From contig OZ024760.1 of NCBI GenBank assembly GCA_964016885.1, forward strand, positions 19,530,001 through 19,594,000: a DNA stretch of 64,000 nucleotides, written 5' to 3'. Of this stretch, positions 29,640 through 64,000 are shown piece after piece. Source of the DNA: Eledone cirrhosa (Eukaryota). The notes under the pieces were generated by a model. The model was not told the origin of the DNA, made no database searches, and saw only the letters and a program-made list of their open reading frames with translations. Every line of letters begins with the position of its first letter. Position 1 is the stretch's first letter. Made by a program: the position numbers and the translations under genes.

Positions 29640-30008
29640 AGATTACAATAATCAAAGTTCAGTTTAAGTCATTTATTTGCTTACAATTGTTTCCTCCAAA
29701 CCAAGGTTTGGATTCTTCGGAGCAACTATTTACTGATCTATAACATACTTGACCTCCTTTTCAACCCAAGAGACATATAAAACATATGCGCATATTGATC
29801 AACAGTGGGGTGACATTCATCAAATGATATAGAAATGTCACCCCACTGTTGATCAATATGCGCATATGTTTTATATGTCTCTTGGGTTGAAAAGGAGGTC
29901 AAGTATGTTATAGATCAGTAAATAGTTGCTCCGAAGAATCCAAACCTTGGTTTGGAGGAAACAATTGTAAGCAAATAAATGACTTAAACTGAACTTTAAT
30001 TATTGTAA

Positions 30009-30011
<3 letters not shown>
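29640..30011. mobile_element. Foldback element (178-bp arms, 16-bp spacer), Penelope-like pLTR candidate
   Basis: 29640-29817 vs 29834-30011, one mismatch seen; next to (TA)n; each arm has a hammerhead motif followed by AATAAA. Confidence 0.8.
29926..29974 (+). ncRNA. Minimal type I hammerhead motif (mirror copy on - strand about 29677-29725)
   Basis: TTGCT-CCGAAGA-aTCCAAAC(cttg)GTTTGGAg-GAAA-CAATTG-TA-AGCAA. Confidence 0.65.
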
Positions 30012-30051
<40 letters not shown>

Positions 30052-30318
30052 TGACAATAAGAATTGCAGATTATTGTAAACTTAATTACATATTACAAAT
30101 TGTTTCCATATCAATCAGCCATATCAATTGTGCGATCGGTCCCGACTCTTAATCAACATTACTTCAGATATGAGAGTTTACATGAGTGGTTCCATGTATA
30201 TATATATAAATATATACTTTCAACAGTATTTTCAAGCTCATCTAAGTGTCTGTAGGAGATATGGACAATATTTGGCCTTCAAAGCTTAGGTATTGCTTTT
30301 GTTCTGTGTATGAACATA

Positions 30319-30376
<58 letters not shown>

Positions 30377-30814
30377 GATATTCATAAATGGAAAGAAGTT
30401 GAAGTTATGAGAAGGAAATTTGAAGCTGAATGTTGTTCTACAATAAATAAACAAACTGAATGTATTCATGTAATTTATAATCTATATGAAATCAGAGATT
30501 AAAAGTTTGGGTACACAAATCCTGAGTGTTGAAAGAGTGTAAGTGTACAGAACATTCAAATAATAAATTCATTAAATTCCACTACATCTATTATATAACA
30601 TCTTAACATTTCAATATATACAAAATGTTATAAAGCATGAGATTTATACTTACCAGTATTTTCTATTGTACAATGTTCTGCATTATTTAACATATTTTAG
30701 GGAATCTTTTTTTAATTATGATTGTTAGATACATAAATGATCTTAGTTATTTCTACTTCAACTTTTAGTGATGAACTAATTATGAACTAACACTTCGTCC
30801 TCTTTATTATATAT

Positions 30815-30946
30815 ACGTCCCTTTACGATCTGAGTTCAAATCCCGCCGAGGTTGACTTTGCCTTTCATCCTTACGGAGTCGATAAAATAAAGTACCAGTA
30901 ATGCACTGGGTAATTGCTGGCCTTGTGCCTAAAGTAGAAACAATTA
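30815..30946 (+). mobile_element. SINE family A, 5'-truncated
   Basis: B-box and body match other copies. Confidence 0.75.
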
Positions 30947-30972
30947 TATATATATATTTATTTATATATATA

Positions 30973-31304
30973 TCATCATTTCATCATCATTTCATTTTTA
31001 CGTCCGCTTTTTCCCTGCTTGCAAGGGTGGGACGGGAACTGATGCTGGCTTGATTTCTACAGCTGGATGCCCTTCCTAACACCAACCTCATTTACAGTGA
31101 GTGCTGGGTGCTTTTTCGCCGTGGCACCTCCACGACCACTTTGCAGTGGAATGATATGGACCCCAGTCCCTATCATCTCATTTCTACAGCTGAGTAAACT
31201 GGAGCAAGGTGAAATAAAGTGTCTTGCTCAAGGAAACAACACATCACCCGGTCTGAGAATTGAACTCACAACCTTTCGATTGCAAGGCCAATGCTCTAAC
31301 CACT
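30973..31304 (-). mobile_element. SINE family B
   Basis: Reverse complement of 22690-23000. Confidence 0.85.
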
Positions 31305-31747
31305 ATATATATATATAAATATTAATTAAAATAACAGATTAAAGTTTAAGCAAAGAATCGCTGCTTTCACCCTTAATAAAGAGGACAAAGTGTTAATTCA
31401 TCATTGTGTTTATTGAGGTGTCAATAAATATAATGATGATCTAACATTTTGTCTTTTTATTAGTATTACACTCTGCTTAGTACAACACCAACATACCTAC
31501 TATAATATATGAAAAGATTCAGGACCTGACAGCTGAGCTCCAGCCGGTTAAAACGGCGGAAATCTAGCTGAACTTATAAATATATACATATATGATAGTT
31601 ACAACATGCAAATGTATAAATCATGCAAACGTAGGTAATAACATATGTATATAGACATCAATATTAGTTGAGTGGAAGTAAAATGACATATATATTTATT
31701 TATATATATATATTTATATATATATATATATATATATATTTACATAT

Positions 31748-32112
31748 ATCATCATCATTTCATTTTACGTCCGCTTTTTCCCTGCTTGCAAGTGTGGGAC
31801 GGGAACTGATGCTGGCTTGATTTCTACAGCTGGATGCCCTTCCTAACACCAACCTCATTTATAGTGAGTGCTGGGTGCTTTTTTGCCGTGGCACCTCCAC
31901 AACCACTTGCTAGTGGTATGATATGGACCCCAGTCCCTATCATCTCATTTCTACAGCTGAGTAAACTGGAACAATGTGAAATAAAGTGTCTTGCTCAAGG
32001 AAACAACACATCACCCGGTCTGAGAATTGAACTCACAACCTTTCGATTGCAAGGTTGTGAGTTCAATTCTCAGACCAAGTGATGTGTTGTTTCCTTGAGC
32101 AAGACACTTTAT
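31748..32112 (-). mobile_element. SINE family B with inverted duplication of its head
   Basis: 31981-32042 complementary to 32051-32112. Confidence 0.8.
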
Positions 32113-35399: not shown

Positions 35400-35575
35400 A
35401 TAAGTTTATCCTGGGTTCAATCTGGGGTAACCACCCATCTGAATCACCACCCTCTCCTACCACCAGAAAAGATATAAATACCACCATATTACTTGGACAG
35501 TCGGCTTCCTGATGATTTCTCCCGAATGAAACAGTTCTAGTCCTGTAGAAGCCATTTCTATATTAAATATATATA
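35400..35575 (+). mobile_element. Penelope-like pLTR fragment, same family as 56828-57255
   Basis: Shared sequence with 57057-57184 and, inverted, with 57217-57253. Confidence 0.65.
35503..35553 (+). ncRNA. Type I hammerhead ribozyme motif with intact core
   Basis: GGCTTC-CTGATGA-tTTC(tccc)GAAt-GAAA-CAG(ttctagtc)CTG-TA-GAAGCC. Confidence 0.75.
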
Positions 35576-36302
35576 CAGATATAAATATATATAGATATAT
35601 ATATATATAATTAGAGTGCAATAATCCACTATTATTTTTGGTAAGGTGCATCAATATTTTATTAATGCCAAAACCATACAAGAATCCAAGTCAAAGACTC
35701 CAAAGTGTTAAGTTACTCGTAGTTGAAGACAATGAAAGCCACAGAGCATAAATAATTAATACAACGTTGTTATTCAAATTCCACGTTTAGTTTCAGCAAT
35801 TGTTTCTGTAAAGATAAATGTAGCACCTTTACATAGTATCAATGTGAAGTGTTCTCTTACTATAGAGTCTAAAAGTAAATAAAATCTGTATACTTCAAGA
35901 ACATACTTAAACTGAAACCTTAATGTAGTCACTAGTAATTGGTCTAGTCTATATATTTTAGTTGATTAATAATTTATGTCACACCGATATATATACACCT
36001 TTTGTTAGTTTAACCTATTTTATATAAATGATCATAGAACTGTTAAAGATATATAACATTAGAAGAAAGCATTTAATATATCAAAAACAAAGAACTATTT
36101 CTCAGACAAATTTCATTATCTTTATAATTTTAGAGTTTGTCGTTTCTCATGGCTACATATACTTATTTACAATATTTATTTTTATTCTTGTATTTTTATC
36201 TATTGCTAGGTTTCACAATTTAGGGACTCTTTTCAATATGTATGTCTATATGATTATTTTAAATTTGTAATATAAAATTTTTATCTGCACTATTTCTCTT
36301 AG

Positions 36303-36749
36303 GCATCAACAATAATGGAAAGTCAGATGTTGTCTTCTTGGTGGATTCTGCCAGTATTAGTAATAAAGGAATCTTTAGAAACGCTCTTGAATTTATTAAA
36401 GATTATGTTTCTGATGCCGATATTGACAGTGGGGATGTTCAAGTTGGGTTGATTATTTCTAATGAGAGGAATTACGTTAGCTTCTATCTGAACCAGTTTA
36501 ATACAAAACACGCAGTTCTCAACACTCTTCAAGCTACGTCCTTTAAACAAGGCAATTCAAATTTAACAGAGAGTTTGAAAGTGATGCAAAGTCATGTTTT
36601 CTCTGAAAGATTCGGGGATCGAGCTGATGCCCCTAATTTTGCTCTGTTGCTGCTCAATAATCAGTCCCAATCGACTTATTCAGATGTGATTGATGTAGAA
36701 TTTGATCTTGCTCAGAAACAAGGGATTCACATCTTTGCCATTGACATTG
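36303..36749 (+). CDS. VWA domain 1 (degenerate MIDAS, C-terminally truncated)
   Basis: cttag|..KSDVVFLVDSASIS..GDRADAPNFALLL..GIHIFAIDI|gtgagt; 447 nt, phase 1-1. Confidence 0.7.
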
Positions 36750-37318
36750 GTGAGTCAAAGCTACAAATGTTTAGAAAAATATACAGATATTTTCTTTAAA
36801 CCATCTGAATACAATGCAATGCTCATTCAATCTATTGATGTTTCTTTGTTTTTATACATATTCTATTGAGCATTTCATTTGGGCGCTATATTATCTGAAG
36901 GTCTATTGAATATGAAACAAATTCTTTATATAAATTTCCCTTCATTTAGCAAATCCATTTGTTGGAATGGTTTTAACATAGATCTCTTTTGATGAAGTAA
37001 ATAATCCTTGGAATCTGATATATTTCACGTGAATAATGGTTGGCTTTCGTTTCAATTTATAGTCTTTGTGGTGGTTAGCATTTTTGTATTCAAACATTTA
37101 ATTCATATCAATGCTTCTTTGTTTTTCAATCTAAAATCGATAACATATTTTCTCTTGCATCCAATCATATATATATGAAAGGATACAACAAATAAACAGA
37201 TGACAATTAAATATTTTGTTTTCAACAAATATTTTAATATATATTACTACTTGTTTTCTACTTTGCACTATATATATAGATGTATATATATATATAAATA
37301 TATATTAAAAAAATAAAA

Positions 37319-37358
<40 letters not shown>

Positions 37359-37683
37359 TGTATATGTATATATATATATATATATGCATACATATATATA
37401 TATATATATGTATGTATGTATGCATATATATATATATGTATGCATATATATATATATGTATGCATATATATATATATGCATATATATATATATATATATA
37501 TATATGCATATATATATATATGCATATATATATATGTATGCATATATATATATATGTATGCATATATATATATATATGTATGCATATATATATATATATG
37601 TATGCATATATATATATATATATGTATGCATATATATATATATATATGTATGCATATATATATATGTATGCATATATATATAT

Positions 37684-37722
<39 letters not shown>

Positions 37723-37893
37723 TACACTGTATTACATAATATTATCACACAGAAAAGGAAAGCTGTACATCTTTTCTAGCAAATGTTTATCCAACTGATT
37801 ATTGAAATATTTTATTCATCAATATCTTTAATGATGTTTTGCATTTTTTTCTGATGGTTTCTGTAGTTTGTAAGAAATAGTAGTTATATATAA

Positions 37894-37967
<74 letters not shown>

Positions 37968-38190
37968 GTGTTTCATTCTTTTATAGTTGTAATTGTTTTT
38001 TTGAGAATGGATTATATGTAATTCCATACAATGATATTAAGACCAACATTGTTAGTAATAATTTATTTATCAATGTCTGTAGAGAATTGTTAGCAATATG
38101 ATTTTATTCCAGACTTCAAAATGGGGGAAACTGTGCCTTTAAATAATAATATTAATGATAATAATTCGAAAAATGTCTTTTGTTCTTCAG

Positions 38191-38232
38191 AACCAACTCA
38201 AACAGTTCCAAAGTTTGCATTCGAAATGTTTG
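38191..38232 (+). CDS. Linker micro-exon EPTQTVPKFAFEMF (alternative in-frame acceptor at 38113)
   Basis: tttgttcttcag|42 nt|gtaagt. Confidence 0.6.
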
Positions 38233-38474
38233 GTAAGTCATATAGGATAGAATATAGAACTACTGTCACAACAATAACCCAGTTATCATTATTATTATCA
38301 TCCTCATCATCATTTTATTATTGTTAATAATGATAGAAATTTTAAATATAATCCAAAAGTAACTATTTCTCTGAAACTCACATGGATTGTGCAACACACA
38401 TATACATATATATGTGTGTTTGTGTATGTATATATATATATATATTTATATATATATACACACACACACTCTAT

Positions 38475-38529
<55 letters not shown>

Positions 38530-38604
38530 ACACACACACTCTATTATACATATATATATGTATATCTATCTATGTATCTATCTATCTATCTATGTATCTA
38601 TCTA

Positions 38605-38659
<55 letters not shown>

Positions 38660-38674
38660 TTCTCTCTCTCTCTA

Positions 38675-38714
<40 letters not shown>

Positions 38715-38715
38715 G

Positions 38716-38754
<39 letters not shown>

Positions 38755-38955
38755 TAGGTAATTCCAAAGGAAAAGCAAAGGAAACAAGAGTGCTCTATGT
38801 ATAGAACAGAGCTATTTAATTCGAAAGTGAACAATGCAAAATATAATTACTCTATTACCAAAGGTTTCTAGATCAGACAGAGATGTCATATAGTTATATT
38901 TTGTGTTGTTCACTTTCTAATATATATATATTAAATATGTATATATGTGTATGTA

Positions 38956-38995
<40 letters not shown>

Positions 38996-39078
38996 TGTGT
39001 GTGTGTAGACAAATTTGTTTAGTTAGTATTGTGTATATGAATGTGTCATTATATTGTGTTTATTAAACCTACCTGTAG

Positions 39079-39648
39079 GAGACTGTAGTGATGCCAGACT
39101 TGATCTCATCTTTGCTTTGGATTCATCAACAAGCGTTGGCAGAAAACATTTCAAAACACAGGTCTCCTTTATCAAGTCCCTTCTATCTGATGTTCCCATC
39201 AGCAATGAAGGGATACAAGTGGCCATTGTCACTTTTAGCAATGACATTAAAATCCATTTTCATTTAAATGCCCACAACAATAAAGAAGAATTATTCGAAG
39301 CTATCGATAACATAAAATATCGGTACGGCAGCTCCAATACTGCCGAGGCTATACGTATTATGCATGAAGAGATGTTTAACATCCGAAATGGTGATAGGGA
39401 AGATGCTGAAAATATAGCTTTTGTCATCACTGATGGACTGTCAAATCTGAATGCTTACCGATTACCTACTGCTGTGAAGAATGCCAAGAAAAGTGAAATT
39501 AAAATGTTTGCAATTGGTGTTGGTCTAAGAGATACACGAGAGTTGGACATAATTGCTTCACATCCAATTCTCATGAATAGAATGGTTGTCCGAAATTTTG
39601 ATGAGCTCCAGACAATCAAATCCTCATTGATAAAACGTCTTTGTCCAG
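39079..39648 (+). CDS. VWA domain 2
   Basis: DLIFALDSSTSVG..ITDG..LCP; cctgtag|570 nt|gtaagt. Confidence 0.93.
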
Positions 39649-39844
39649 GTAAGTTTACTACGCTCTGTGTTACCTCTACTATACTACATTATCTCAATTT
39701 AATTATTTTCACATGTTTCTTACCCATGTATAATGTCTTCAAGTGTCTGGTTAATAAATGATACAATACATAGATAAGAATATCAATTATAGTGCTCCAG
39801 CATGGCCACAGTCTAATGACTGAAACTAGTAAAAGAATATGGTG

Positions 39845-40025
39845 CATTGGCAGTATCAGTAGAGTCAGGCAACATGCTTTGCAGCATAGAGTTATGGCCC
39901 TTTACATTCTAAGTTCAAATCCCGACTAGGTTACCTTTGCCTTTCATCATTATGGGGTCTATTAAATAAAGTACCAGTAACGCACTGGGGTAATTGCTGG
40001 CCTTGTGCCAAAACAGAAACAATTA
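39845..40025 (+). mobile_element. SINE family A (further fragments to about 40165)
   Basis: Homology to 2870-3052. Confidence 0.7.
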
Positions 40026-40320
40026 TAACTACTACTATTATTAGGGCATTGGACAAATGCTTTACAGCATAGAGTTACAGCCTTTTACGTTCTGAGTTCA
40101 AATCCCTCCGTAACTATATGCTTCAAAGTATGTTGTCCGACACTCTACCAATTCTGCCATCCCATAATAATAAAATAATCTGCATTTCTTGATAAATCAC
40201 CTAATATAATATTTCCTTCATATGTTAAATGTGAAGATTGGATGCTACTGCCTTTAACTATGATATATATCTAATGTGATGAACATAATTATAGTTTTGA
40301 TTTTCCTAATTCATTTTCAG

Positions 40321-40347
40321 TGGTGATTGATGAAGCACCTATTCAAG
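40321..40347 (+). CDS. Linker micro-exon VVIDEAPIQ
   Basis: ttttcag|27 nt|gtaagc. Confidence 0.75.
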
Positions 40348-40745
40348 GTAAGCTTTACATTTCATTATCTTATAACTTCTAATATATCTAAATATGATAT
40401 CCCTTTATTATATTCAGTAACTTTTTAACCTACAACCTAATTATGATATCATTCTAGTGTATGTCATAGCAAAATATTACACAACTTAAATATTAGATGT
40501 CTAGTTTATATCATATCTTTGTAATCTACAACCTAAATATGATGTCACTTTATTATGTTTCAACTTTTGACCTACGATATAAATATTAGTTGACTTTCTT
40601 ATGTCATTTGTCACATTATCACCATCATTATCATCATCACAACCATCATAATCTTCATTTTCATACCTTTCAATCATTGGTGTTATCTCTATTAACAAAA
40701 AAACAGTTGAATAAAGAAAAAAAACTATTTGAACTTGTTAGGTAA

Positions 40746-40952
40746 CCCTTTAGTATTTACATTACTCTATATTTACTATTGTATTTTCATGGTAAAGGCT
40801 TTACCTCACATAATATCAAATCTATGAAATTTGATATTATTTATTTTGCGAACAATACCTTAACATAAATATGAGTAGCTGGTTACAGCTGGTTTGAACA
40901 GAAAGAGATGAGAGAATTCTGGCCTGATACGGCTGGTTTAAATGCTAAAGGG
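40746..40952. mobile_element. piggyBac-like MITE family 1
   Basis: Family TIRs; GGG|TTAA end. Confidence 0.75.
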
Positions 40953-41079
40953 TTAAATATTGTTATCAAATCAAACAACAGCTGGATTTTACTGTTAATA
41001 TTTTGGCTCCAAAATTAGTGTAAGATTGTGTCTATGTATGTAATAGAAATGTAGTTGTTTCTTTAAACTTTTTTCTTAG

Positions 41080-41649
41080 GTGTACAGAAGATGGTCCCTA
41101 CTGATCTAATATTCCTGGTTGATTCCTCAACAAGTGTAGGGAAAAGGAATTTCCAAATATTTATTGATTACATCAAAGAGTTTATCTCCGAAGCTGACAT
41201 TGATTATGGCAGTATCCGTATTGGTTTGGCCTTATACAGCACCAGAGTCTATATTCAGTTTTATCTCAACGACTTTCTTACAAAGAGAGAAATGCTAGAG
41301 GCCATTGATAACGTCCGTTATAGATACGGCAGCACAAATGCTGCTCATACATTCCGCACATTGCGTAATAAAATATTTATCCCTGAGAATGGAGACAGGC
41401 CTGATGCTCGAAACATTGCTGTAATGATTACAGATGGTATCTCTAATATTGAACACTACGAGACCATTCCCGAAGCTAAATTGACCCATGCTGCTAACAT
41501 CCATGTCTATGCCATTGGCTATAGATTATATGATACAAGAGAGCTGACTAAAATTTGTACCCCTCCTGCTGAGGGAAATGCTTTCAATGTTCAAAGCCTT
41601 GATGAGGTAAAATTTCTTAAGGAGGAAATTCTTCAGAAAATAGTCCCAG
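41080..41649 (+). CDS. VWA domain 3
   Basis: DLIFLVDSSTSVG..GSTN..ITDG; cttag|570 nt|gtaaga. Confidence 0.93.
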
Positions 41650-42011
41650 GTAAGAAAGTTTGAACTGAGAAAGCTTAGAAAACTTACTTTTATATGGATG
41701 CGTAGAAAAACCACTGCACTTTAATGGTAAACTTAAAAAACAGTTTAAAACCACAAATAATTTTAAACAGATGCAAATAAGAAACTCTGCACTCTAATAG
41801 TAAAATTTAAAACTGCAAATACTTTAATCACACTGTAATTTCAGTGGCTTCATGCTGATTTAATACAAATATTTGGAATTAATTTTCACCTAAAATAGAA
41901 TTGATCACAACATTGTATTGGTATATATAACATTGTGTAATTGCAGCTCATATATATATGCATATATCCACCCCATGTAAGCATGGAAAAGCAGCCGTAA
42001 AAATAATGATG

Positions 42012-42043
<32 letters not shown>

Positions 42044-42121
42044 TACAGGGTGTGCCCCCAAAATGTATAATACTTTGATTAGAATGCTGTTGAAATGTGT
42101 ATACATTTTTCGGGACCCGTA
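42044..42121. mobile_element. Tc1/mariner-like mini-MITE
   Basis: TA|CAGGGTGTG..AAAATGTATA vs TATACATTTT..CCCG|TA. Confidence 0.5.
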
Positions 42122-42219
42122 TATATATATAATTTCAATAACAAATGCTATTAGTTTTATTTATAGTCACATGAATCACATATTATAGAGAATGCTATTT
42201 ACTATAGTTTCATCACCAA

Positions 42220-51896: not shown

Positions 51897-52093
51897 TTCT
51901 TCTTCTTCGCCCACTTATTCCTGGGAGGGTCGTCAGGGCAGAGTCCTCAAACAGTCCTTCCAGTGGGTCATGTCAGAAGAAACTGTCTCCAGCTGGATCC
52001 CCAAGCTTGACCAACCAAGCTCATGGATGTTATCCAACCTTCTTGCTCAGGGTTTACCTCTGGATCTCTTGCCAGCAGGTTTTGCCCATAAAA
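51897..52093 (-). mobile_element. Decayed RTE-like LINE 3' fragment
   Basis: Reverse-complement similarity to 325-490. Confidence 0.55.
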
Positions 52094-52383
52094 TGTATAA
52101 ATATACATTATATATTTAATTTAGAAAATATTTATCAAAAGTGATCTAATGTCATCTATTTATAATTAAATATATTTAAAATTTAGTTCAATTTTATTAG
52201 CTTTAATTTAATTTAAAACAGTAATTTTTTAAATTCTAATTTTGATATATGAAATATGACTTCCTCCTTTGAATAAAATATAATAGCAGTTGTTTAAAAT
52301 TGGTAATTAAACATTGGTAATAAATAAATTAATTGCATCAATTTGTGACATATTGATTGGTAAAATGGTAATCTTGGTTCCAG

Positions 52384-52425
52384 AACTTCCAACCACACCT
52401 CCAACAACTCCTGTTCCAACAACTG
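52384..52425 (+). CDS. Linker micro-exon ELPTTPPTTPVPTT
   Basis: ttccag|42 nt|gtaagt. Confidence 0.85.
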
Positions 52426-52509
52426 GTAAGTTGTCCACATAAATACTCATTCTGACTATCTAACAGACAGACATTCTAATCAACAATGACAACTTCACCA
52501 TGTCTCATT

Positions 52510-53510
52510 TTAACCCTTTCATTACCATATTTCTAATGAAAGACACTGTCTAAGTCATTAACCCTTTCATTACTATATTTCTAATGAAAGACATTGTCTA
52601 TATCTTTAACCCTTTCATTACCATATTTCTAATCAAAGACACTGTCTATGTCATTAACCCTTTCATTACTATATTTCTAATGAAAGACATTGTCTATATC
52701 TTTAACCCTTTCATTACCATATTTCTAATCAAAGACACTGTCTATGTCATTAACCCTTTCATTACTATATTTCTAATGAAAGACATTGTCTATATCTTTA
52801 ACCCTTTCATTACTATATTTCTAATCAAAGACACTGTCTATGTCATTAACCCTTTCATTACTATATTTCTAATGAAAGACACTGTCTATGTCTTTAACCC
52901 TGTCATTACCATATTTCTAATGAAAGACACTGTCTATGTCATTAACCCTTTCATTACCATATTTCTAATGAAAGACGCTGCCTATATCTTTAACCCTTTC
53001 ATTACCATATTTCTAATGAAAGACACTGTCTATGTCTTTAACCCTTTCATTACCATATTTATAATAAAAGACACTGTCTATATCTTTAACCCTTTCATTA
53101 CCATATTTATAATGAAAGACATTGTCTATATCTTTAACCCTTTCATTACCATATTTCTAATGAAAGACACTGTCTATGTCTTTAACCCTTTCATTACCAT
53201 ATTTCTAATGAAAGACGCTGCCTATGTCTTTAACCCTTTCATTACCATATTTCTAATGAAATACACTGTCTATGTCTTTAACCCTTTCATTACCATATTT
53301 CTAATGAAATACACTGTCTATGTCTTTAACCCTTTCATTACCATATTTCTAATGAAAGACACTGTCTATGTCTTTAACCCTTTCACTACCATATTTCTAA
53401 TGAAAGACGCTGTCTATATCTTTAACCCTTTCATTACCATATTTCTAATGAAATACACTGTCTATATCATTAACCCTTTCATTACCATATTTCTAATTAA
53501 AGACGCTGCC
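52510..53510. repeat. 48-bp minisatellite x~21 derived from MITE family 2 terminus
   Basis: Unit TTAACCCTTTCATTACCATATTTCTAATGAAAGACACTGTCTATGTCW matches 44375-44417. Confidence 0.9.
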
Positions 53511-53959
53511 AAGGATTTTCAAATAATTTTTGAAAATAATCAAAAATTTAGAGGGATTTAGGAACATAAATTTCACAAAATCAAGATGTTTTTCTAAACA
53601 TACAAGTCAGTTATCATCAGCAGCAGAATTTTATGTCCATTTTCTTTTCTTGTAAAGTGATGGTGCTGGTGGTGGTGGTGGTGCTGCTGCTTCTGTTGAT
53701 GTTGATGATGGCAATCATCTTGTATGTTTTGAAGAATTATTGTGTGAAATATTGTGTGAAGTATTTAGAAATTATTAAATATATATCCCCATAGTAACAA
53801 ACACGCCATATTTAATAAGTGTAAAATATTTTAAATGTCATCTATTAAGGTATTTATTTCAATTACAAATTGTTTCTCTAGAAGACATGTTTCTTATATC
53901 ACATTATAGAGAAACAATCAACAGACTTGACCCTTCAACCTAACTCCATATGATAATCA

Positions 53960-54290
53960 AGGATATCACCACAAGCTAGTGTCAAATATATCATATTGAT
54001 AATGATATCACCACAAACTAATGTTAAATATATTATATTGATAATGAGATCACCACAAGCTGATGTTAAATATATTATATTGATAATGAGATCACCACAA
54101 GCTAATGTTAAATATATTATATTGATAATGATATCACCACTAGCTAATGTTAAATATATTATATTGATAATGAGTGATATCACCACAAACTAGTATTAAA
54201 TATATTATATTGATAATCAGTGATATCACCACAAGCTAAATATGGGATATTCAATGATATCACCACAAACTAGTATCAAATATATTATGT
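53960..54290. repeat. ~42-bp minisatellite x~7
   Basis: GATATCACCACAAGCTAATGTTAAATATATTATATTGATAAT unit. Confidence 0.85.
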
Positions 54291-54671
54291 ACATCATTTT
54301 GTTTCAATTTCTATAATACTGATACAACATTTTATTATCCAGTAACATTTTATTATCCAGTAACATTTTATTATCCAGTAATATATTTTCATGCTCAAAT
54401 ATTTGACAACCCTCTTTAAAGTCCATCCAAACTCTCTTACTTTACAAACTTCAAAAAACAGAACTCTAATCAAACATGTTGAAGGTGTTTTCATAACTTC
54501 CACTTGGTCATATAAAAGTTGACATTTACAAACTATAAAATAATGTGAGGGCATTTATTAAATTAAATTTTAAAATTCTAATAAAACATATCAAGCTACC
54601 CCATAATGTAAACAATCTCAGTTTTATTTAAGAAAATAATTTCAATTTAGATTTTGAAGAAATTCTTTTAA

Positions 54672-54880
54672 CCCTTTAGCTTTCACATTACTCTATATAA
54701 ACTATTATATTTTCATGGTAAAGGCTTTACCTCACATAATTATCTCACATAATATCGAATCTATGAGATTTTGAAAGTATTTATTTTGAGAACAATACCT
54801 TAACATCAGTTTGAGTGACCAATTACAGCCAGTTTCAACAGAAAAAGGTAGAGATTCTGGCTGGTTTGAACATTAAAGGG
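54672..54880. mobile_element. piggyBac-like MITE family 1
   Basis: TTAA|CCC..GGG|TTAA. Confidence 0.75.
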
Positions 54881-55584
54881 TTAAATATTTATTCTATTTA
54901 ATTCTCATGTGTAATTCCCATAAACTTGTTTCACTAGTATTGAAGACTTTTCTATTTCTATGAGATTTGTTGGGTGTACATGGACATCATAATCTTAATA
55001 TATGGCTATTAAATGTGTGTGTACATAGATATTGTGTACATAGATATTGTGTACATGGATATTGTGTACATGGACATTGATATCCTACTCCTAATACATG
55101 AATATTAAAATAGTCTGTACATGGATATTAAATTGTGTATATCAAATTACTAAAGACTTCAATATTAAATTGTGCATATGTTGATATCAATTTACAAAAT
55201 ACAGGGATATTAAATTGTGTATATGTTGATATCAATTTATAAAATATGTTGTGGATATTAAATTGTGCATATGTTGATATGAAACTAATAAAGACTTTGA
55301 TATTAAATTGCATATACATGTACATCAAACTAAAACGTACATGGATAGTAAATTGTGTATACATTATCTATACATGGATATCAAACTATTAATTCATGGA
55401 TTTTAAATTATAATTATTTATATAAAGATATCAAACTACTAATTCATAGATATTAAACTTATTTAGATATACAACAGTGCATGGATAAACAATGCCTTAG
55501 AGCATTATTAGATGTGTTTGCATGATTGTCTACTGCGCAATGCGACTTACTAACACCTCGTTTTTTCTCTTCCTAAACTACCAG

Positions 55585-56151
55585 CCTGCCACACATCTCG
55601 CGCTGATATTGTACTTCTCTTGGATTCTTCAAGTAGTGTCAGTACAAAAGATTTTCACAAAATGCTCTCGTTTGCAAAACAGTTTTTGTCTGATGCAAAC
55701 ATTGATTCAGGTGGTGTGCGTGTTGGTGTTTTAGTTTATAGCACTCGTGTGCATGTTGAGTTTCACCTGAATCAGTATTCAACGAAAAGTGCACTCTTTA
55801 CTGCCATAGACAGTGTTGAATATAGATATGGCGATACCAACACTGCAGCTGCTCTGCGGATAATGAGAACTAAAATGTTCACCCCTGAGAACGGCGATAG
55901 AGAAGATGTACCTAACATTGCCCTCGTACTTACTGATGGGCTGTCTAATATTGAACCAAAATATACTATACTAGAGGCTTTGCGCGCGCATTCTCAAGGA
56001 ATTCATATTTATGCAATTGGTATTCATTTAACTGACATAACTGAATTACAAAGTATAGCTTCGAAACCAGCTTCAGAAAACAGTTTTAGAGTTGATGATT
56101 TCAATGACCTTGCTAAAATGAAAGCGGATGTGTTTGCCAAATTCTGTCCTG
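55585..56151 (+). CDS. VWA domain 5
   Basis: ACHTSRADIVLLLDSSSSVS..GDTNT..LTDG..FCP; ccag|567 nt|gtaagt. Confidence 0.93.
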
Positions 56152-56559
56152 GTAAGTTTTGTTACAGAAAACATTATGGCTAAATGTGTGTGTAAATTAT
56201 GAAAAGAATTACGATGAGAAATATTACACTTTAGGGACCTGCATTTCTTGAGAAATATATTTTTATCTTATGTAATCATGCCATTATCTCACAAACTAAG
56301 CTATTGTCTTCTCTGAAAACAATACTCCATCTGTTTTATTTACAGACAAAATACTATACTACACATGTCATAAGAAATCTTACATAGATAATATCTAATA
56401 AATATATATATATATTTTTTTTAACATTTATGCTTTATTTATTTATTAGACTATTTCAAACAACACCACCTATTAATTCTATGGTTTAACAATATATTTT
56501 TTATCTAATTTTGGCCAAATTATAATTAATATTTGTGGTGAATTTTCTTTTCCTCATAG

Positions 56560-56586
56560 AACCACCAACAACACCTGCTGAACCAG
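56560..56586 (+). CDS. Linker micro-exon EPPTTPAEP
   Basis: tcatag|27 nt|gtaagt. Confidence 0.85.
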
Positions 56587-56798
56587 GTAAGTTATGTCAT
56601 TAGAAATATAAAAAGTTAAAATAATCACTTTCATTCTGGTTATAATGTTAAATATTTTTTTGTTGTGTTATTAATATATTACATTGTCGTTATTATATCT
56701 TGTTTGTATCTAATTTCTAATTTCCTCCAAAGTTTATACAGCTATATTGTTTAGAAAGGAACTATCTGTTTTAGCAATAATAATCGTTTGTGTTTGTG

Positions 56799-56827
<29 letters not shown>

Positions 56828-56834
<7 letters not shown>

Positions 56835-57249
56835 ATATAGAAAAGCTTCTACAGGACTAGAACTGTCTCATTCATGAGAAATCATCAGGAAGCTGACTGC
56901 CCAAGTAATATGGTGGTATTTATATCTTTTCTGGTGGTAGGAGATGGTGGTGATTGGGATGGGTGGAGGTCATTGGTTGATGGGTTTATTCTAAATATAG
57001 CTTTTAAAGAATTCCGTTTTCTTTAAACCCATCAATCAATGACATCCACTCATCCCAATCACCACCCTCTCCTACCACCAGAAAAGATATAAATACCACC
57101 ATATTACTTGGACAGTCAGTTTCCTGATGATTTCTCATGAATGAAACAGTTCTAGTCATGTAGAAGCTTTCCTATATTAAATATTTATACTCTGCTATGT
57201 ATTGAGTACCTTACTTACTGTGGTTACCCCCGATTGAACCCAGGATAAA

Positions 57250-57255
<6 letters not shown>
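56828..57255. mobile_element. Foldback Penelope-like element (about 160-bp arms) inside (TA)n, hammerhead motif in each arm
   Basis: 56828-56988 complementary to 57023-57184. Confidence 0.75.
57118..57168 (+). ncRNA. Type I hammerhead ribozyme motif
   Basis: AGTTTC-CTGATGA-tTTC(tcat)GAAt-GAAA-CAG(ttctagtc)ATG-TA-GAAGCT. Confidence 0.65.
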
Positions 57256-57292
<37 letters not shown>

Positions 57293-57602
57293 TTATATAT
57301 ATTTATTAAAATAACAGATTAAAGTTTAAGCAAAGAATCGACGCTTTCACCCTTACTTATATATACATATATATATACATATACATATATATGAAAACAG
57401 GGAGAAAGAGACGATTATTAGGAAGAAAAATATATTTTTTTCCTTTTTTTCTGGGTTAGAAAATGATTAAAACAAAATGTTTTACTTTGTGTGAAGTGTT
57501 AAGGTATTAGTTGATTTATTTATTATTTAACAACGGCATTTATTTATCTATTTATATATTTAATTATTGTCTATTACCAGTTTCATATACATACATATAT
57601 AT

Positions 57603-57646
<44 letters not shown>

Positions 57647-57722
57647 ATATATATACATACATAATTCTTTAATTTTATGTTATATTTGATGTAAAACTAA
57701 TTCTAATTTACCTTTTATTTAG

Positions 57723-58283
57723 AAATTGCTCCATCTGATGTTATATTCCTGTTGGATACATCTACAAGTGTAAACGAAGGAAATTTCAAGAAGGTTCTCG
57801 CATTTGTCAAGGACTTTTTATCTGAGGCCCATTTTGGCCCTAGTGGCATACAAGTTGGTATAGTTACTTACAGTACCAGTATTAATGTACAGTTTTATTT
57901 GAATACATATGAAACAAAACCAGAAATCCTTGAGGCTATTGACAAGATCCCATATACTTATGGCAGCACCAATACTGCCGGTGGCTTGGAGACTATAAGG
58001 AAGTTTATGTTCCAGAAAGAACATGGTGACAGAGACTATGCCAAGAATATAGCTATTGTCGTAACTGATGGTGTTTCCAATGTTAACGCTTACCGCACTG
58101 TTGATGAAGCAGCTTTAGTGAAAGAACAAAATATCCACATTTATGCTATTGGTGTTGGTCTTGTGGAACTTAGTGAACTGCATCAGATAGTATCGGAACC
58201 TGCAGAAGAAAATACATTCCTTGCTCAAAACTTTGATGAACTTGAAGGTTTGAAAGAGTTGGTGTTTACTGAGTTCCGTCCAG
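57723..58283 (+). CDS. VWA domain 6
   Basis: DVIFLLDTSTSVN..GSTNT..VTDG; tttag|561 nt|gtatgt. Confidence 0.93.
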
Positions 58284-59108
58284 GTATGTATAAGTTATTG
58301 TGAAATTACATCTCTTTTACACCCATTAATCTTGGGAGGACTGGTGGATAAATTATTTTAAAATTACATCTCTTTCACACCCACTGATTTGGGAAGGACA
58401 GGTGGATGGAGGTAAATATCATATTATGGGGTTAGTGATGTTAATATTTACAACTGTTTCCATATAAACAACATCCAATAAACACCATTACCTACTGCTA
58501 CAAACTAAATCTATTTTTACAGAGGAAGATTCCTCAAAGGTACATGACTAGTATCTATTTAGTGAGAATTATAATGATTAATGATAATGGTTTCTGATCT
58601 AGGCTCGAGGCCAAAAAATGTGGAGAGGGGAAAGTCAATTAAATAGACCCCAGTGTGTTACTGGTACTTTATTTTATCGACTTCCATAAAGTCAAATATA
58701 TTATATTCTTTGGGTTGACTATGGCTCCAAATTTCTAAGGTCTTAGCTGTAATAATGGTTAAAACAAATGAGAAGTAAAGTAGTACATTTTTAGCTATAT
58801 AGTTTTCATAAATTAAATTTCTGTCAATATAAATTAATTTTCCTTTGGTTTTTTTACTCATCATCTCAATTCATTTACATTTTTCACAACCACAAAGCAC
58901 TTCATATTTTCAATTCATTACAAAATCTACAAACTTTCACAACCAATGCAAATCATTCATCAATGCCTAACACACCCCTAACACCTATTTCCCACACCAC
59001 CACCTTCTACCAATCCTTCACTGAAGCCTGCCTGCATCTTGCATCCTTTCCAAATTTCATCAACATTGCACCTCATTGAAAAAGAGAAAATTTGTTCTTT
59101 CTTCGCAG

Positions 59109-59141
59109 AACCTACAACAACACCAGTAATTACAACCACCG
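59109..59141 (+). CDS. Linker micro-exon EPTTTPVITTT
   Basis: cttcgcag|33 nt|gtatgt. Confidence 0.85.
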
Positions 59142-59312
59142 GTATGTTCCATTGTCTTGCTTCCACGATTCATTGAAAATATAAAAATAAAAATAAAAAA
59201 ACAATCCTTCTCACAGACTTTTCATGCTCCTACACAGTACAAGGTGTGGTAAAAATAAAATCCCAGATTTTAAAGGTTAACAAAAAAGTTGATGTTGGTT
59301 TAGTTACCTTAA

Positions 59313-59517
59313 TCTTTTAGCATTTACATTACTCTATATATATTATTGTATTTCCATGGTAAAGGTTTTACCTCACATAATATCAAATATATGAGATTTT
59401 GGTGTTATTTATTTTGAGAACAATAGCTTAACATCAGTATGAGTGGTCGGTTATGGCTGGTTTGAACAGAAGGTAAGAGAATTCTGGCTTGATATGACCA
59501 GTTTAAATGCTAAAAGG
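59313..59517. mobile_element. piggyBac-like MITE family 1 (another copy at 59917-60067)
   Basis: Family TIRs, TTAA flanks. Confidence 0.7.
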
Positions 59518-60714
59518 TTAATAGTATTACAAATAACAATGAAGATTTTACTAATGGGGAGGACTTAATACTGTGGTAGTAGAGTCAAATATATTATACC
59601 CTTTGGGTTGACTGGGGCTCCAAATTTCTGAGGTCTTAGCTGTAAAACAAACTAGAAGTAGATTTTTACAAAAAAAGGCATTATATATAGTATTGACGAT
59701 ATTTATTACATAATCTAAAAGTGTATAGAATGCAGTTTATTTTCAGTGGGTTGAATATGATATCATTCAGATTATGGCCTTCATTCTCAATACACAATTA
59801 TAGTTGAATTCTAAAATCTTGCATCACTCGGTGTATCGAATAAATGATTTGGTCATGAAGAAATGGTACACACCCCTACAAATCATGACCTTAACTAAAA
59901 AAAAATTATAATTTAACCTTTTAGCATTTACATTATTCTATATTTACTATTGTGGTTTCTTTTTTTAAAGGCTTTATCTCACATAATATCGAATCTATGA
60001 GATTTTGATGATATTTAAAGAGATGAGAGAATTCTGGCCAGTTACAGCCGATTTAAATGCTAAAGGGTTAAATAAATATAAAATGCTGAACAGTATTGGA
60101 GAGGTTTATTTATTCTGTAAGATCAAAATCGAAATCACAAATCAACTGCATGCTTATGTACAATTAAATTAGATTATGTGATAGTTTTGAGGAGTATTTA
60201 ACATGTCCTTTTTGTTAACCTTTAATAAAATCTGGGAGTCTTTTTATTATGCTTCACCCAAAAGTCAGTTTTAACAGTTAACAAAATATTACATACAAAA
60301 CATTCTAAAATTCAAACATCGGTAAATATACTTCAATTTATTTAAACAGATTCAAATATAAAATTGTTAAGTTTCAACACATTTCCAATTACATTGAGGT
60401 AACTTATTTTAAAATATAACAAATTTTAAAACATATTTTAGCTTTTGCTAAATTCAAACATAATTAAATGGTATTATATTAAAGTGTAGAGCAATTTATA
60501 AGAAAACTTGAGTGAGGGTGATAATTTATATAATCATGTAAGTATGTTGGCCTTTATATATAACTATTTCTTTATTGTTAAATATTGTGTTTATGTATTG
60601 ATGAATTTATGTCTTAATGAATTTATATATTAATGAATGTTTTAAATATTATAGACCAAACATTAATATATTTGTACAAGCTATGTCTCTTATTTTTCCT
60701 CCCTGCGCATATAG

Positions 60715-61281
60715 AATGCAGCGCTGCAGCATATGATTTAGCTTTCCTTCTTGACTCTTCGACAAGTGTAAGTGAGAGGAATTTCAGGAGAGTGCTAACA
60801 TTTGTCAAGGAATTCTTATCTACGGCTGTTATTGGACCAGAAGGAATCCATGTCTCTGTTGTGACCTTTAGTACCAGTGTACACATTGAGTTCTTACTGA
60901 ATCGGTACTCAACGAAGGAAGAAATAATTGGGGCCATTGACAGAATACCTTACAGATATGGAAGTACAAATACAGCTGATGGTTTGAAAACTATCAGAAC
61001 TGAGGTATTTTCTGTCGAGGGTGGTGACCGACTTGAAGCTCAAAACAAACTGTTGGTTATAACCGACGGAGTCTCAAACATTAATGCCTTCCGTACCATT
61101 GATGAAGCTGAACTGACCAAAAACCAGGATGTCCATATATATGCTATTGGAATTGGTTTGCCAGACACTAAGGAACTTATGAAGATTGCTTCAGAACCTG
61201 CAGAACAAAATACACTTGTTGTTAGAGAGTTCAACGACCTTAAAGGCTTGCAAGCAGAAATGTTTGAAGAAATTTGTCTCG
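60715..61281 (+). CDS. VWA domain 7
   Basis: ECSAAAYDLAFLLDSSTSVS..GSTNT..ITDG..ICL; atag|567 nt|gtaagt. Confidence 0.93.
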
Positions 61282-61554
61282 GTAAGTTACCATTTCTCCA
61301 ATAATTTATAGAATTTGGAAGTTTCATTTCATTATTATCATCATCATCATCATTTTACATTTGCTTTTCCAAGCTTGCATGTGTTGGACAGGTCTCTTTC
61401 AGTACAGCATCCCTCCATTTGTCGTGTTCCTTCATCATCTGCCATGCATTTCCACATTCTTCAAAAAGTTAAATAAAAAATAATTTAAAATCTTTCTGTT
61501 ATCTTTTACCATTCCATGTGTCAGGTGTTTGACATTGAGTTTTGTTTTTTGCAG

Positions 61555-61584
61555 GAATGCCAACCCGAAAGCCACGACCTACTG
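61555..61584 (+). CDS. Linker micro-exon GMPTRKPRPT
   Basis: ttttgcag|30 nt|gtaaga. Confidence 0.8.
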
Positions 61585-62041
61585 GTAAGATTAACCATCT
61601 AAATACAAAGAAAGTTATATCTTTCATTGCCAACTCTGCATGATTCTGTATTCTGTAGTTATATTGCATCTTTCTATCATTGGTGAAATAATTATATTTC
61701 AGTTTACTGGTAGTTTTTAAATCTAGTCTAATTAACTAAATTACTAGAATTAAACAAGAGAAAGGTTATCAAAATGTTACAAACTTTTAATATTAAAACA
61801 TAAAAATATTTAGCCATGTTTATAATAATATCAATGGAATCACTATAGTTAATTGGAAATTATTTTGATTTTAATTTATCAAAGCTCGAGTACAGGTATA
61901 GATTTATGGTAGCCATTTACGTGTGTTGTATTGAAGCAACTAACTTTGTGTCTACTCTAGGATTTTTACATTACCTTACCTATTGAGTACGCAGAGATGC
62001 AACCGATGCTAGCAGGGAAACTTCTGCTAGTCCTGTCAACT

Positions 62042-62086
<45 letters not shown>

Positions 62087-62824
62087 CGTGTGTTCCAAAG
62101 AGAATGTTTTGGTAAAAACAGGAGAAAGCTCTCGACATTCGCAGTTTTTAGTTACGATGGAGATTTTTATAAAAATAATTTTTATAAAAATAACAAAATA
62201 AGATGCTGAGGTTACATAAATCATTTAATAATTATAATTATTTCCATGGTTCTCCATGCAATCGTGAAGTCCTTCATGCATTTGTTGTTGTTATGAGAAC
62301 GGTATCCTCAGATGAAATCTGATTTAGTGATATGCTGCCGGCAGGAAAAAACACACGTCCTTTTGCTCATGTGCCCAGCAGATATACGAGTTCCTGAAAA
62401 GGGTGTCCCAGCCGTCGTGTTTGCTGTAGTAAAGTGCTATTAACGTGTCAAGTAGTGAAATCAGGATTCACGCATCCCCCGTGGAGTTGAGGTTGTAAAT
62501 TAGCAGAGAGGTAACCTCTCAAGTATGCTGATCTGTATCAAATTATTAGTACAGATTAAAGTTTAAGCAAAGAATTACTGCTTTCACCCTATACAGGATC
62601 TTCTGAAATAGAAGACTAATTTTAAATATTTGCTCTACAGGTTTATATGTACTTATATATATATATATATATATACACAATCCTTATCAAGCTTTCTTTG
62701 AATTTTGGTCTTTGTATATATTAATACTATATATATATATGTAGCAGTGTAGTTAATACAAAGCATTGTGAGATATGTAGTAAAAGGCCAATAAATTCTT
62801 TTAAAAGCTATCTACTGATTGTAA

Positions 62825-62950
62825 ATCCAAGTAGAAGGAGCAACATGGAATAAAGTGTCTTGCTCAAGGACATAATGCATCGCCAGTCTGGGAATCAAAC
62901 TCACAACCTCACGATTGTGAATCCAGTTCTCTAACCACTCAGCCATGCAC
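62825..62950 (-). mobile_element. SINE family B-like head fragment
   Basis: Reverse-strand A/B boxes and CCTTGAGCAAGACACTTTAT. Confidence 0.6.
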
Positions 62951-63611
62951 TTTATATATGTCTATATATATATATATATGAGGTCTATAAAATATGTAAT
63001 AGTAATATATTTGGGTTTGATTCTATTGATTAGTTTCTTACTACACAGAATTACTATTCTGTTTATTTCATATGTAATTATTTTAAAACTAATGCTTTAA
63101 AATTAATAATTTGGGTTTCAATTTTTTTTTAATTGTTTATGGTGAACATTTGATAACCTAGCTCTTGTTATAACAGTAGTAAAATAGTTAAATTTTTTAA
63201 ATATATTAATATTAACATGTGATTAATTAATTAATAATAATAATTATTATATGATCCAAATGTTTATTGATATTATTAAAAGAACTACTACAACCATTTT
63301 ATATTACTAATAAGACTGACCATAGTTATATTCAGTGTTTGTGTGTGTGTGTATGTATGTATGTATATATATATATATATATACATACATACCGCATTGT
63401 TGAATTCATCTAACTATAATGGTTTTAACAAGGCTGACAACTATAAAACTGTGCTGACCTACCAAGTGTTATCTCCCTTAGTTGGCTGACACCAGTAATT
63501 ATGTCCCTTCTAAATATTGTGATCAATAACTATAGCTATAAACAAACCAGTTTGATAAATAATACTTCTACCAGTTGTATCCTTTAATTCTCCTCTTTGA
63601 AATAAGTGTAA

Positions 63612-63663
<52 letters not shown>

Positions 63664-63761
63664 AAGTTATATTTAAAATTGTTGGGTTACAACTAGTAAA
63701 TATTTATAACTGATATAAAAGCACTCGACAAATATTTGGAGTATATTTACAATATTAAATA

Positions 63762-64000
63762 AATGGAAAACTATATTTATAAAACCATATTTATTTCATT
63801 ATATATATTTCGGGGATATCATATTAACAATATGCTATGCCTTCATCAGACAAAATATATTGTAATATATTGTAATATATTTATCTATAAAACTGTTTAT
63901 ATTGTATTTTGTCTGATGAAGGCATAGCATATTGTTAATATGACATCCCCGAAATATATATAATGAAATAAATATGGTTTTATAAATATAGTTTTCCATT
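63762..64000. mobile_element. Foldback Penelope-like element running off the window end
   Basis: 63762-63857 complementary to 63905-64000. Confidence 0.75.
63905..63970 (+). ncRNA. Minimal type I hammerhead motif (mirror copy on - strand)
   Basis: TATTTTGT-CTGATGA-imperfect stem II-GAAA-TATATA-TA-ATGAAATA. Confidence 0.6.

What the first reader, a model, noticed from the sequence alone, without database searches (positions are those of the whole stretch)
29640..64000. Three unrelated foldback elements each pair a sense hammerhead with its own antisense copy
Seen: palindromes at 29640-30011, 56828-57184 and 63762-64000 share no obvious sequence but have one architecture. Each sits at or near (TA)n, and each arm holds a type I hammerhead motif (CYGANGA..GAAA..UA) pointing outward, with a non-canonical pair closing stem II (A.G, U.U, A.C) and a palindrome in stem/loop III (CAATTG, CTAG, TATATA). 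AATAAA follows the motif in the first and third. Established: Penelope-like element pLTRs encode minimal hammerheads thought to act as dimers and often occur as inverted pairs. Inference: these are non-autonomous ribozyme-bearing retroelements, and in the host pre-mRNA the upstream arm would base-pair with and silence the sense ribozyme whichever way the element is inserted, making it tolerable in introns.
Basis: partly seen in the sequence, partly recalled or inferred. Interest (0 to 1): 0.8.

Follow-up and report, generated by a model that had tools for sequence, protein, structure and literature searches.

The report
Mirror-image stumps of Penelope-like retrotransposons
The three palindromes are short, mirror-image insertions left by three abundant jumping-gene families that carry a self-cutting-RNA (hammerhead) motif at their end, and the mirror shape is likely a by-product of two DNA copies being made and joined at each landing rather than a device for silencing the ribozyme.

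Summary
The palindromes and hammerhead motifs are real: 5 of 6 arms pass a strict type I descriptor (null 0.01 per shuffled window); E2's left arm has a broken core. They are not dedicated non-autonomous elements. Each is the 3' end (pLTR) of a different protein-coding Penelope-like family with Hydra-clade marks (thousands to over 30,000 motif copies), truncated and inverted on insertion, a published architecture. One arm tailed and one tail-less holds in 71 of 77 classifiable inverted insertions. In families 2 and 3 short foldbacks join at an initiator-like site, arms share private variants, and one pair of junctions is mirror-image. This favours two cDNAs from two start sites annealing at each insertion (inferred). 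The foldback is predicted to bury the sense ribozyme, but selection for silencing is unsupported: unshielded sense copies lie in this gene's introns; six unshielded insertions sampled are all sense, none antisense; foldback enrichment is not significant (4/7 vs 4/20, p=0.14, underpowered). This scan noted similar insertions before in shark and fish DNA.

The parts
29468..29639 (-). E1 tail (172 nt): the sequence that follows the pLTR and precedes the ORF in the full family-1 element; ends in (TA)n
29640..29833 (-). E1 left arm: inverted family-1 pLTR (tailed arm), 16 nt longer at the centre; hammerhead 29677-29725, predicted cut after 29682
29834..30011 (+). E1 right arm: 5'-truncated family-1 pLTR without tail, followed by (TA)n
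29926..29974 (+). E1 sense type I hammerhead: 5-bp stem I, core CCGAAGA, A.G + 7-bp stem II, palindromic loop III, predicted cut after 29969
35400..35434 (-). inverted fragment of the family-2 tail only (does not cover the ribozyme)
35431..35570 (+). unshielded sense family-2 pLTR in a host intron; intact hammerhead 35503-35553, the best predicted monomer fold in the window
56828..56987 (-). E2 left arm: inverted family-2 pLTR without tail; hammerhead core broken (GAGA for GAAA)
56988..57184 (+). E2 right arm: family-2 pLTR, 37 nt longer at the centre; TATA-like box 57088-57095, initiator-like site with +1 at 57118 (inferred)
57118..57168 (+). E2 sense type I hammerhead: 6-bp stem I, U.U + 3-bp stem II, stem III with one mismatch, predicted cut after 57162
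57185..57254 (+). E2 tail (70 nt), ends in (TA)n
63661..63748 (-). E3 tail (88 nt): precedes the ORF in the full family-3 element; ends in (TA)n
63749..63857 (-). E3 left arm: inverted family-3 pLTR (tailed arm), ending at the edge of stem I; hammerhead 63792-63857
63858..63873 (.). E3 junction filler with a short local duplication
   Evidence: read directly
63874..64000 (+). E3 right arm without tail (runs 13 nt past the window end, then (TA)n); hammerhead 63905-63970, predicted cut after 63962
29026..29052 (+). 27-nt phase-1 host micro-exon just upstream of E1; places E1 in an intron of the + strand host gene (inferred from splice sites)
36263..61304 (+). host gene, series of von Willebrand A exons on the + strand (continues to about +114 kb beyond the window start and back to about -45 kb)

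Best explanation
The three palindromes are 5'-truncated, inverted insertions of the hammerhead-bearing ends of three protein-coding Penelope-like retrotransposon families inside (TA)n tracts, and each was likely built at the moment of insertion from two cDNAs joined head to head. Shown: the arms are pLTRs of families with RT and endonuclease ORFs; one arm ends at the pLTR end (site A), the other at the tail end (site B); junctions differ between insertions; arms of one insertion match each other. Inferred: the element protein cuts both strands of a (TA)n target, each strand primes reverse transcription at one of the two sites on uncleaved element RNA, the two cDNAs stop at random or run off the RNA 5' end (an initiator-like site in families 2 and 3), anneal by microhomology and are filled in. 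The antisense shielding of the ribozyme follows from this geometry and needs no selection to explain it.
For: Linked ORFs: family 1 tandem 4.7-kb unit pLTR-tail-ORF (L103) and a 3.4-kb truncated copy with inverted pLTR+tail (L093); family 3 pLTR-tail-750-codon open frame-pLTR (L221), pLTR-tail upstream of the ORF in 8 of 30 ORF loci; family 2 ORF followed by same-strand pLTR in L048/L104 and L114. Model of the L221 protein (pLDDT 85.7) has TERT as best structural match (E=4e-9); Atlas look-alikes carry GIY-YIG and RVT_1. Exact motif counts 4,040, 31,535 and 3,782. In the first 100 listed hits of each: head-to-head pairs 18 of 77, 22 of about 78 and 37 of 61 insertions; tail-to-tail 0, 1 and 0. 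One-tail rule: 66 AB, 4 AA, 2 BB, 10 unclear; after removing 5 duplicate rows 61 of 67, plus 10 of 10. Either arm can be the longer. Mirror junctions L226/L229. Within-insertion 0.6 vs between-insertion 4.4 differences. In vitro a related element cuts both strands, starts RT at two sites that bound the tail and uses uncleaved RNA (PMC11167929).
Against: No intermediate was observed; the two-cDNA step rests on junction anatomy, and on one mirror pair among 10 loci. Arms could be homogenised later by gene conversion. L222 and L231 share one junction and L225 differs by one base, so a small fixed foldback lineage is not excluded. Six inverted pairs break the one-tail rule (three of them are tandem-containing insertions whose outer ends still obey it). 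No start-site cluster was seen for family 1. No intact family-1 or family-2 ORF and no family-2 N-terminus was seen (L103 is frameshifted, L220 truncated). Pfam gives the ORFs no hit above cut-off. No phylogeny with reference Hydra proteins was run.
Confidence: 0.8

Rival explanations
1. Same elements, but the mirror arm arises by snap-back self-priming of one cDNA (or of an antisense template), not from two cDNAs.
For: Proposed for rotifer Penelope from palindromes at inverted junctions (PMC3846280, passages). L229's junction fits snap-back of a tailed cDNA exactly, and snap-back also predicts identical arms.
Against: A copy of a tail-less cDNA cannot gain a tail, and a copy cannot be longer than its template: L226 (full-length arm is the tail-less one), L093 (3.4-kb tail-less arm, 386-bp tailed arm) and tail-fragment-only inversions (L005, L008, L017, L021, 35.4 kb) need a second start. 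L222/L231 have loop-free centres.
Confidence: 0.12
2. One reading: foldbacks are retained in introns because the upstream arm silences the sense ribozyme, while unshielded sense copies are purged.
For: Folding predicts complete burial in the foldback. Foldbacks are 4 of 7 insertions in the host gene against 4 of about 20 in flanking DNA (my count; Fisher p=0.14). Tandem retrozymes are reported as depleted in Xenopus introns (bioRxiv 10.64898/2026.07.22.740005, passages).
Against: Unshielded insertions in the host gene and three dynein-upstream segments: 6 sense, 0 antisense (5 with a full or nearly full core; two-sided p=0.03-0.06 in the direction opposite to the prediction). One is a sense tandem pair. 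With the dynein segments the foldback share is 4 of 10 (p=0.38). Single arms of E1-E3 have stem III probability <=0.01; Penelope-type minimal hammerheads showed no monomer cleavage and little as dimers (PMC4209133) or needed the protein (PMC11167929).
Confidence: 0.1
3. The foldbacks are non-autonomous palindromic elements that transpose as units (retrozyme- or MITE-like).
For: Family 3 has 10 of 37 pairs at 263-272 nt spacing; two share a junction. Family 2 has 20 of 22 pairs within 59 nt.
Against: Junctions differ in 8 of those 10 and both arms carry insertion-specific variants; the shared length is explained by a common RNA start. Family 1 spacings are all different. The one set of identical family-3 foldbacks (L088-L090, L102) shares kilobases of flank, i.e. 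was duplicated passively. No tandem direct monomers of retrozyme type, and no target-site duplication can be read in (TA)n.
Confidence: 0.07

Closest known systems
Hydra clade of C-terminal EN+ Penelope-like elements (Craig et al. 2021, PMC8557442; includes Hydra-1_Obim from Octopus bimaculoides and Penelope-13_HM with an inverted 5'-truncated copy and hammerheads on both strands)
   Same: RWR (for RWK) and DKT motifs, CxCx5C linker, CxxC and CxH after the endonuclease core, no CCHH, type I hammerhead in the pLTR often with an unpaired or U.U base at stem II, (TA)n targets, partial tandems and inverted 5' copies
   Different: Units of about 3.8-4.7 kb with 1.3-2 kb 3' UTRs (published: mostly <3 kb); tails 70-172 nt (published 30-40); hammerhead sequences differ from the listed Hydra-1_oBim motif; not placed on a tree here
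Poseidon element of Anolis carolinensis (PAc; Frangieh et al. 2024, PMC11167929)
   Same: Tail bounded by two ends; AT-rich targets; ribozyme left uncut in the copied RNA
   Different: Different clade; the paper shows two RT starts and cutting of both strands but does not discuss inverted insertions (term look-up)
[quoted passage not shown]
   Same: Short palindromic helix III, dimer-type; the paper already reports pairs 100-700 bp apart on opposite strands and mostly single motifs from truncated elements
   Different: Family 1 has U4->C and A.G in place of the usual G10.1-C11.1; family 2 has a 4-bp helix III that could fold as a monomer
Non-LTR retrozymes (bioRxiv 10.64898/2026.07.22.740005)
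   Same: Non-coding, type I hammerhead, PLE-derived
   Different: Retrozymes are head-to-tail tandem monomers; these are head-to-head truncation products of coding elements
L1 twin priming (recalled, not read here)
   Same: Two target-primed cDNAs joined by microhomology give an inverted insertion
   Different: In L1 the inverted and direct parts do not overlap; here both cDNAs start 70-172 nt apart and copy the same 3' end, giving a palindrome

Membership tests
Penelope-like elements (EN+) | Single ORF with telomerase-like RT | tested here: met
   L221 open frame of 750 codons; model's best match TERT, E=4e-9; YRDD motif in all four aligned ORFs
Penelope-like elements (EN+) | C-terminal GIY-YIG endonuclease | tested here: met
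   IIY...YVG / IIY...YIG motifs in families 1 and 3; Atlas look-alikes with GIY-YIG; Pfam GIY-YIG only in 1 of 23 homologues, below cut-off
Penelope-like elements (EN+) | pLTRs in partial tandem or inverted, with optional tail | tested here: met
   L103, L221, L093, L114; one-tail rule
Hydra clade | RWK and DKT motifs | tested here: met
   RWR and DKT in L221 (family 3), L103 (family 1), L102; family 2 N-terminus not obtained
Hydra clade | CxCx5C linker, CxxC/CxH, no CCHH | tested here: met
   linker in all three families; CxxC and CxH in families 1 and 3; definition
Hydra clade | Insertion into (TA)n and canonical hammerhead | tested here: met
Hydra clade | Length generally under 3 kb | tested here: not met
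   4.7-kb unit (L103) and about 3.8-kb unit (L221); a tendency in the source, not a diagnostic
Hydra clade | Placement in RT phylogeny with reference Hydra proteins | not tested
   reference proteins were not fetched
Type I hammerhead ribozyme | Core nucleotides and stems I-III conserved, with covariation | tested here: met
   264 descriptor hits in fetched loci; family 2: 94% of cells paired, 2 pairs with changes on both sides, but related sequences and 57/500 shuffles reach that count; family 1 loop III CAATTG (55) vs CAGCTG (20) stays palindromic
Type I hammerhead ribozyme | Self-cleavage as monomer or dimer | not testable with these tools
   folding only
Non-autonomous foldback element / MITE | Fixed structure copied as a unit to unlinked sites | tested here: not met
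   L222/L225/L231 leave a small exception open
Non-LTR retrozyme | Head-to-tail tandem monomers each with a hammerhead | tested here: not met
   window elements are head-to-head; only short tandems seen (70.5 kb, -71 kb)

The most novel reading that the evidence does not exclude
Penelope-like elements integrate by symmetric twin priming: one protein dimer cuts both strands of a (TA)n tract and starts one cDNA at the pLTR end and one at the tail end of the same uncleaved RNA; both can run off the capped 5' end and anneal there. In family 2 that 5' end is the first base of the hammerhead (TATA box 30 nt upstream), so the transcript begins with its ribozyme and the commonest foldbacks are little more than a ribozyme fused to its own antisense. 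This would explain the tail, the head-to-head inversion and the lack of tail-to-tail copies with one mechanism.
Probability: 0.5. Interest if true: 0.62.

Novelty: new member of a known kind. Interest (0 to 1): 0.36.

Why it matters
As elements these are ordinary: Hydra-type Penelope-like families with hammerheads, inverted pLTRs and tails are published, including from an octopus. The value lies in the sample size and youth of the copies: a near-strict one-tail rule, junctions that pile up at a likely transcription start, and mirror-image junctions turn the open question of how these elements make inverted insertions into a prediction that the existing in vitro system can test.

Tried and rejected
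Rfam scan: no hammerhead hit at E<=5, only microRNA-like hairpin noise. Pfam on the element ORFs: nothing above cut-off; PDB sequence searches: 0. No RNA holder listed; contigs of three runs of one sample laid on 55400-64000 were swamped by other copies and showed no empty site. The planned 600-kb intron-orientation sample (dynein genes) shrank to 60 kb in six genes; three segments held no motif, and I recognised no dynein exon inside the two segments checked, so their intronic status is inferred from position. A lenient tail classification ran into (TA)n and was discarded for a stricter one. E3 stem II was mis-specified and corrected. A ribozyme-edge 5' boundary was looked for in families 1 and 3 and not found as a cluster. 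Splicing at the stem I edge (as in D. virilis Penelope) was considered for family 2 and is not excluded. DNA transposon reading rejected: no transposase link, RT ORFs instead. Literature searches 'Penelope + twin priming/pLTR' and 'twin-priming + Penelope' found no paper proposing twin priming for these elements; 'Penelope-like, hammerhead, dimers, antisense, intron' listed none on antisense silencing of pLTR ribozymes (listings only; most subscription journals are not searched). The 2017 paper on dimer cleavage of small PLE hammerheads is recalled, not found.
Full report
Setting. The window lies in a 3.0-Gb animal genome (G000, contig C21), AT-rich and full of (TA)n. Named homologues of the element protein come from an octopod, so a cephalopod host is likely. 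The host gene runs on the + strand: von Willebrand A exons (Pfam) from about -45 kb to +114 kb relative to the window start and many 27-51-nt phase-1 micro-exons, one at 29026. E1, E2 and E3 lie between such exons; that all belong to one transcript is inferred from strand and splice phase, not from RNA.

Observation. The three inverted repeats are real and mutually unrelated. A strict descriptor finds six type I hammerhead motifs against 0.01 per shuffled window (100 shuffles): five in the six arms and one at 35.5 kb. E2's left arm has a broken core. The non-canonical pairs, loop III palindromes and AATAAA are as described.

What they are. Each arm is the 3' end of an abundant family: exact motif counts are 4,040, 31,535 and 3,782. 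Family 1 occurs as a 4.7-kb tandem unit, pLTR then tail then ORF (L103; ORF frameshifted), and as an inverted pLTR+tail joined to a 3.4-kb truncated copy (L093). Family 3 has a full copy, pLTR-tail-750-codon frame-3' UTR-pLTR (L221); 8 of 30 ORF loci show pLTR and tail upstream. Family 2's ORF is followed by a same-strand pLTR in 2 of 30 ORF loci (L104, L114), the others being too short to reach it or carrying inverted copies. The L221 protein folds confidently and matches telomerase RT best. The ORFs carry the marks given for the Hydra clade (PMC8557442 section 11, read whole; alignment). That paper's supplement (part 2 of 59 read) lists Hydra-1_Obim from an octopus and a Hydra family with an inverted truncated copy and hammerheads on both strands. 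Cervera 2014 (parts 1-2 of 4 read) already notes motif pairs 100-700 bp apart on opposite strands. The architecture is therefore known, and the tail is simply the start of the element body.

Foldbacks are made at insertion. Among the first 100 listed exact hits per family (start of contig C1 only), head-to-head pairs make up 18 of 77, 22 of about 78 and 37 of 61 insertions, tail-to-tail 0, 1 and 0; family 1 spacings run from 107 to 6,219 nt, all different. In ten family-3 foldbacks of near-equal length, chosen for that length, arms differ by 0.6 nt within and 4.4 nt between insertions, and 8 of 10 junctions are unique. Gene conversion could also make arms alike.

One-tail rule. Of 82 inverted pairs in fetched loci, 66 have one arm ending at the tail end and one at the pLTR end, 4 have two tail-less arms, 2 two tailed arms, 10 are unclear. 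I removed five duplicate rows (E3 counted twice; L087-L090 and L102 are one duplicated locus), leaving 61 of 67; the ten loci add 10 of 10. Most loci were picked as best hits, so this is not a random sample. Either arm may be longer, and the inverted part may be only a piece of tail.

Where short foldbacks join. Family 2: 20 of 22 pairs have at most 59 nt between motifs, about two ribozyme 5' halves (50 nt); by-catch truncated arms end 3-27 nt before GAAA, stem I starting at 25, and by my reading none ends between 28 and 75. A TATA-like box lies 29-31 nt before the first base of stem I in 31 of 31 long copies matched, with an initiator-like TCAGCT (related copies, about three subfamilies). Family 3: 10 of 37 pairs cluster at 263-272 nt and join at an initiator-like TCACT about 70 nt before the core. 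Both fit cDNAs running off the RNA 5' end (inferred; consensus motifs recalled). L226 and L229 are mirror images: the arm that reaches +1 is tail-less in one and tailed in the other. Family 1 shows no such cluster.

Mechanism. Frangieh 2024 (parts 1-2 of 4 read) showed for a related element that both target strands are cut and extended, that RT starts at two sites bounding the tail, and that uncleaved RNA is the template. Together with the rule above this gives: two cuts, two starts, two cDNAs annealed at their 3' ends. Snap-back (PMC3846280, passages) explains L229 but not L226, L093 or tail-only inversions. The steps are inferred, none observed.

The silencing idea. Folding supports burial in the foldback (stem probabilities 0.00), but single arms of E1-E3 hardly form the active fold either (stem III <=0.01), and their loop III regions self-pair as dimers; the 35.5-kb copy folds best as a monomer (stem I 0.95, stem III 0.43) (E3 corrected). 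In the host gene I count 4 foldbacks (E1-E3 and a fourth family at +104.3 kb), 3 unshielded sense insertions (35.5 kb intact; tandem at 70.5-70.75 kb with one intact core; 104.1 kb lacking the core) and no antisense solo; 60 kb upstream of six dynein exons add 3 sense and 0 antisense. Foldback share 4/7 vs 4/20 in flanking DNA of unknown genic status, p=0.14; 4/10 with dynein, p=0.38. A preprint (part 1 of 5 and passages) reports tandem retrozymes modestly depleted in frog introns.

Other papers seen: PMC6765202, PMC2377424, PMC13282606, PMC8969392 as passages only. Supplements of Frangieh 2024 and Cervera 2014 were not read and may show inverted insertions or more motif variants.

Verdict. 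New members of a known kind; interest 0.36. The ribozyme-plus-antisense geometry is a consequence of how these elements insert; the testable gain is the twin-start model and the family-2 transcript that likely begins with its hammerhead.

Noticed in passing
window 28478-28890: A fourth palindrome, with an AT-rich centre and interrupted by a SINE-like insertion at about 28699-28864; no hammerhead core by the descriptor; the same sequence flanks L028. Possibly another Penelope-like or Naiad-type end.
   Followed up: no
window 1118-24680 and upstream to about -22.7 kb: Dozens of 39-nt phase-1 micro-exons coding Pro/Val/Thr-rich 13-residue repeats, in 2.3-5 kb tandem duplications about 96% identical, between two blocks of von Willebrand A exons.
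   Followed up: partly
L091 7435-7760 (window-relative 70435-70760): Family-2 insertion with an inverted tail and two sense pLTRs in tandem, in a host intron; both begin at the first base of stem I preceded by an extra G, as a reverse-transcribed cap would leave (4 such cases).
   Followed up: partly
L167, window-relative 104248-104445: Foldback of a fourth hammerhead family (loop III CCACTGG); its sense copy has a mutated core.
   Followed up: partly
L174-L178, window-relative -101 kb to -62 kb: About 22 hammerhead-like motifs of at least six families in 40 kb, several times denser than in the von Willebrand A gene; copies often nest in each other's (TA)n ends.
   Followed up: partly
window 20485-21594 (-): Truncated RTE-like LINE reverse transcriptase with a PHD-like insert, antisense to the host gene.
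   Followed up: no
L087-L090, L102: One family-3 foldback duplicated with kilobases of flank to several contigs; the copies carry many changes to C on one strand.
   Followed up: partly
window 49326-49833 and 52501-53510: Intronic minisatellites with 72-nt and 48-nt periods.
   Followed up: no
G000 genome-wide: The family-2 motif is unevenly split between strands (16,939 forward, 14,596 reverse), unlike families 1 and 3; perhaps a large one-directional array.
   Followed up: no
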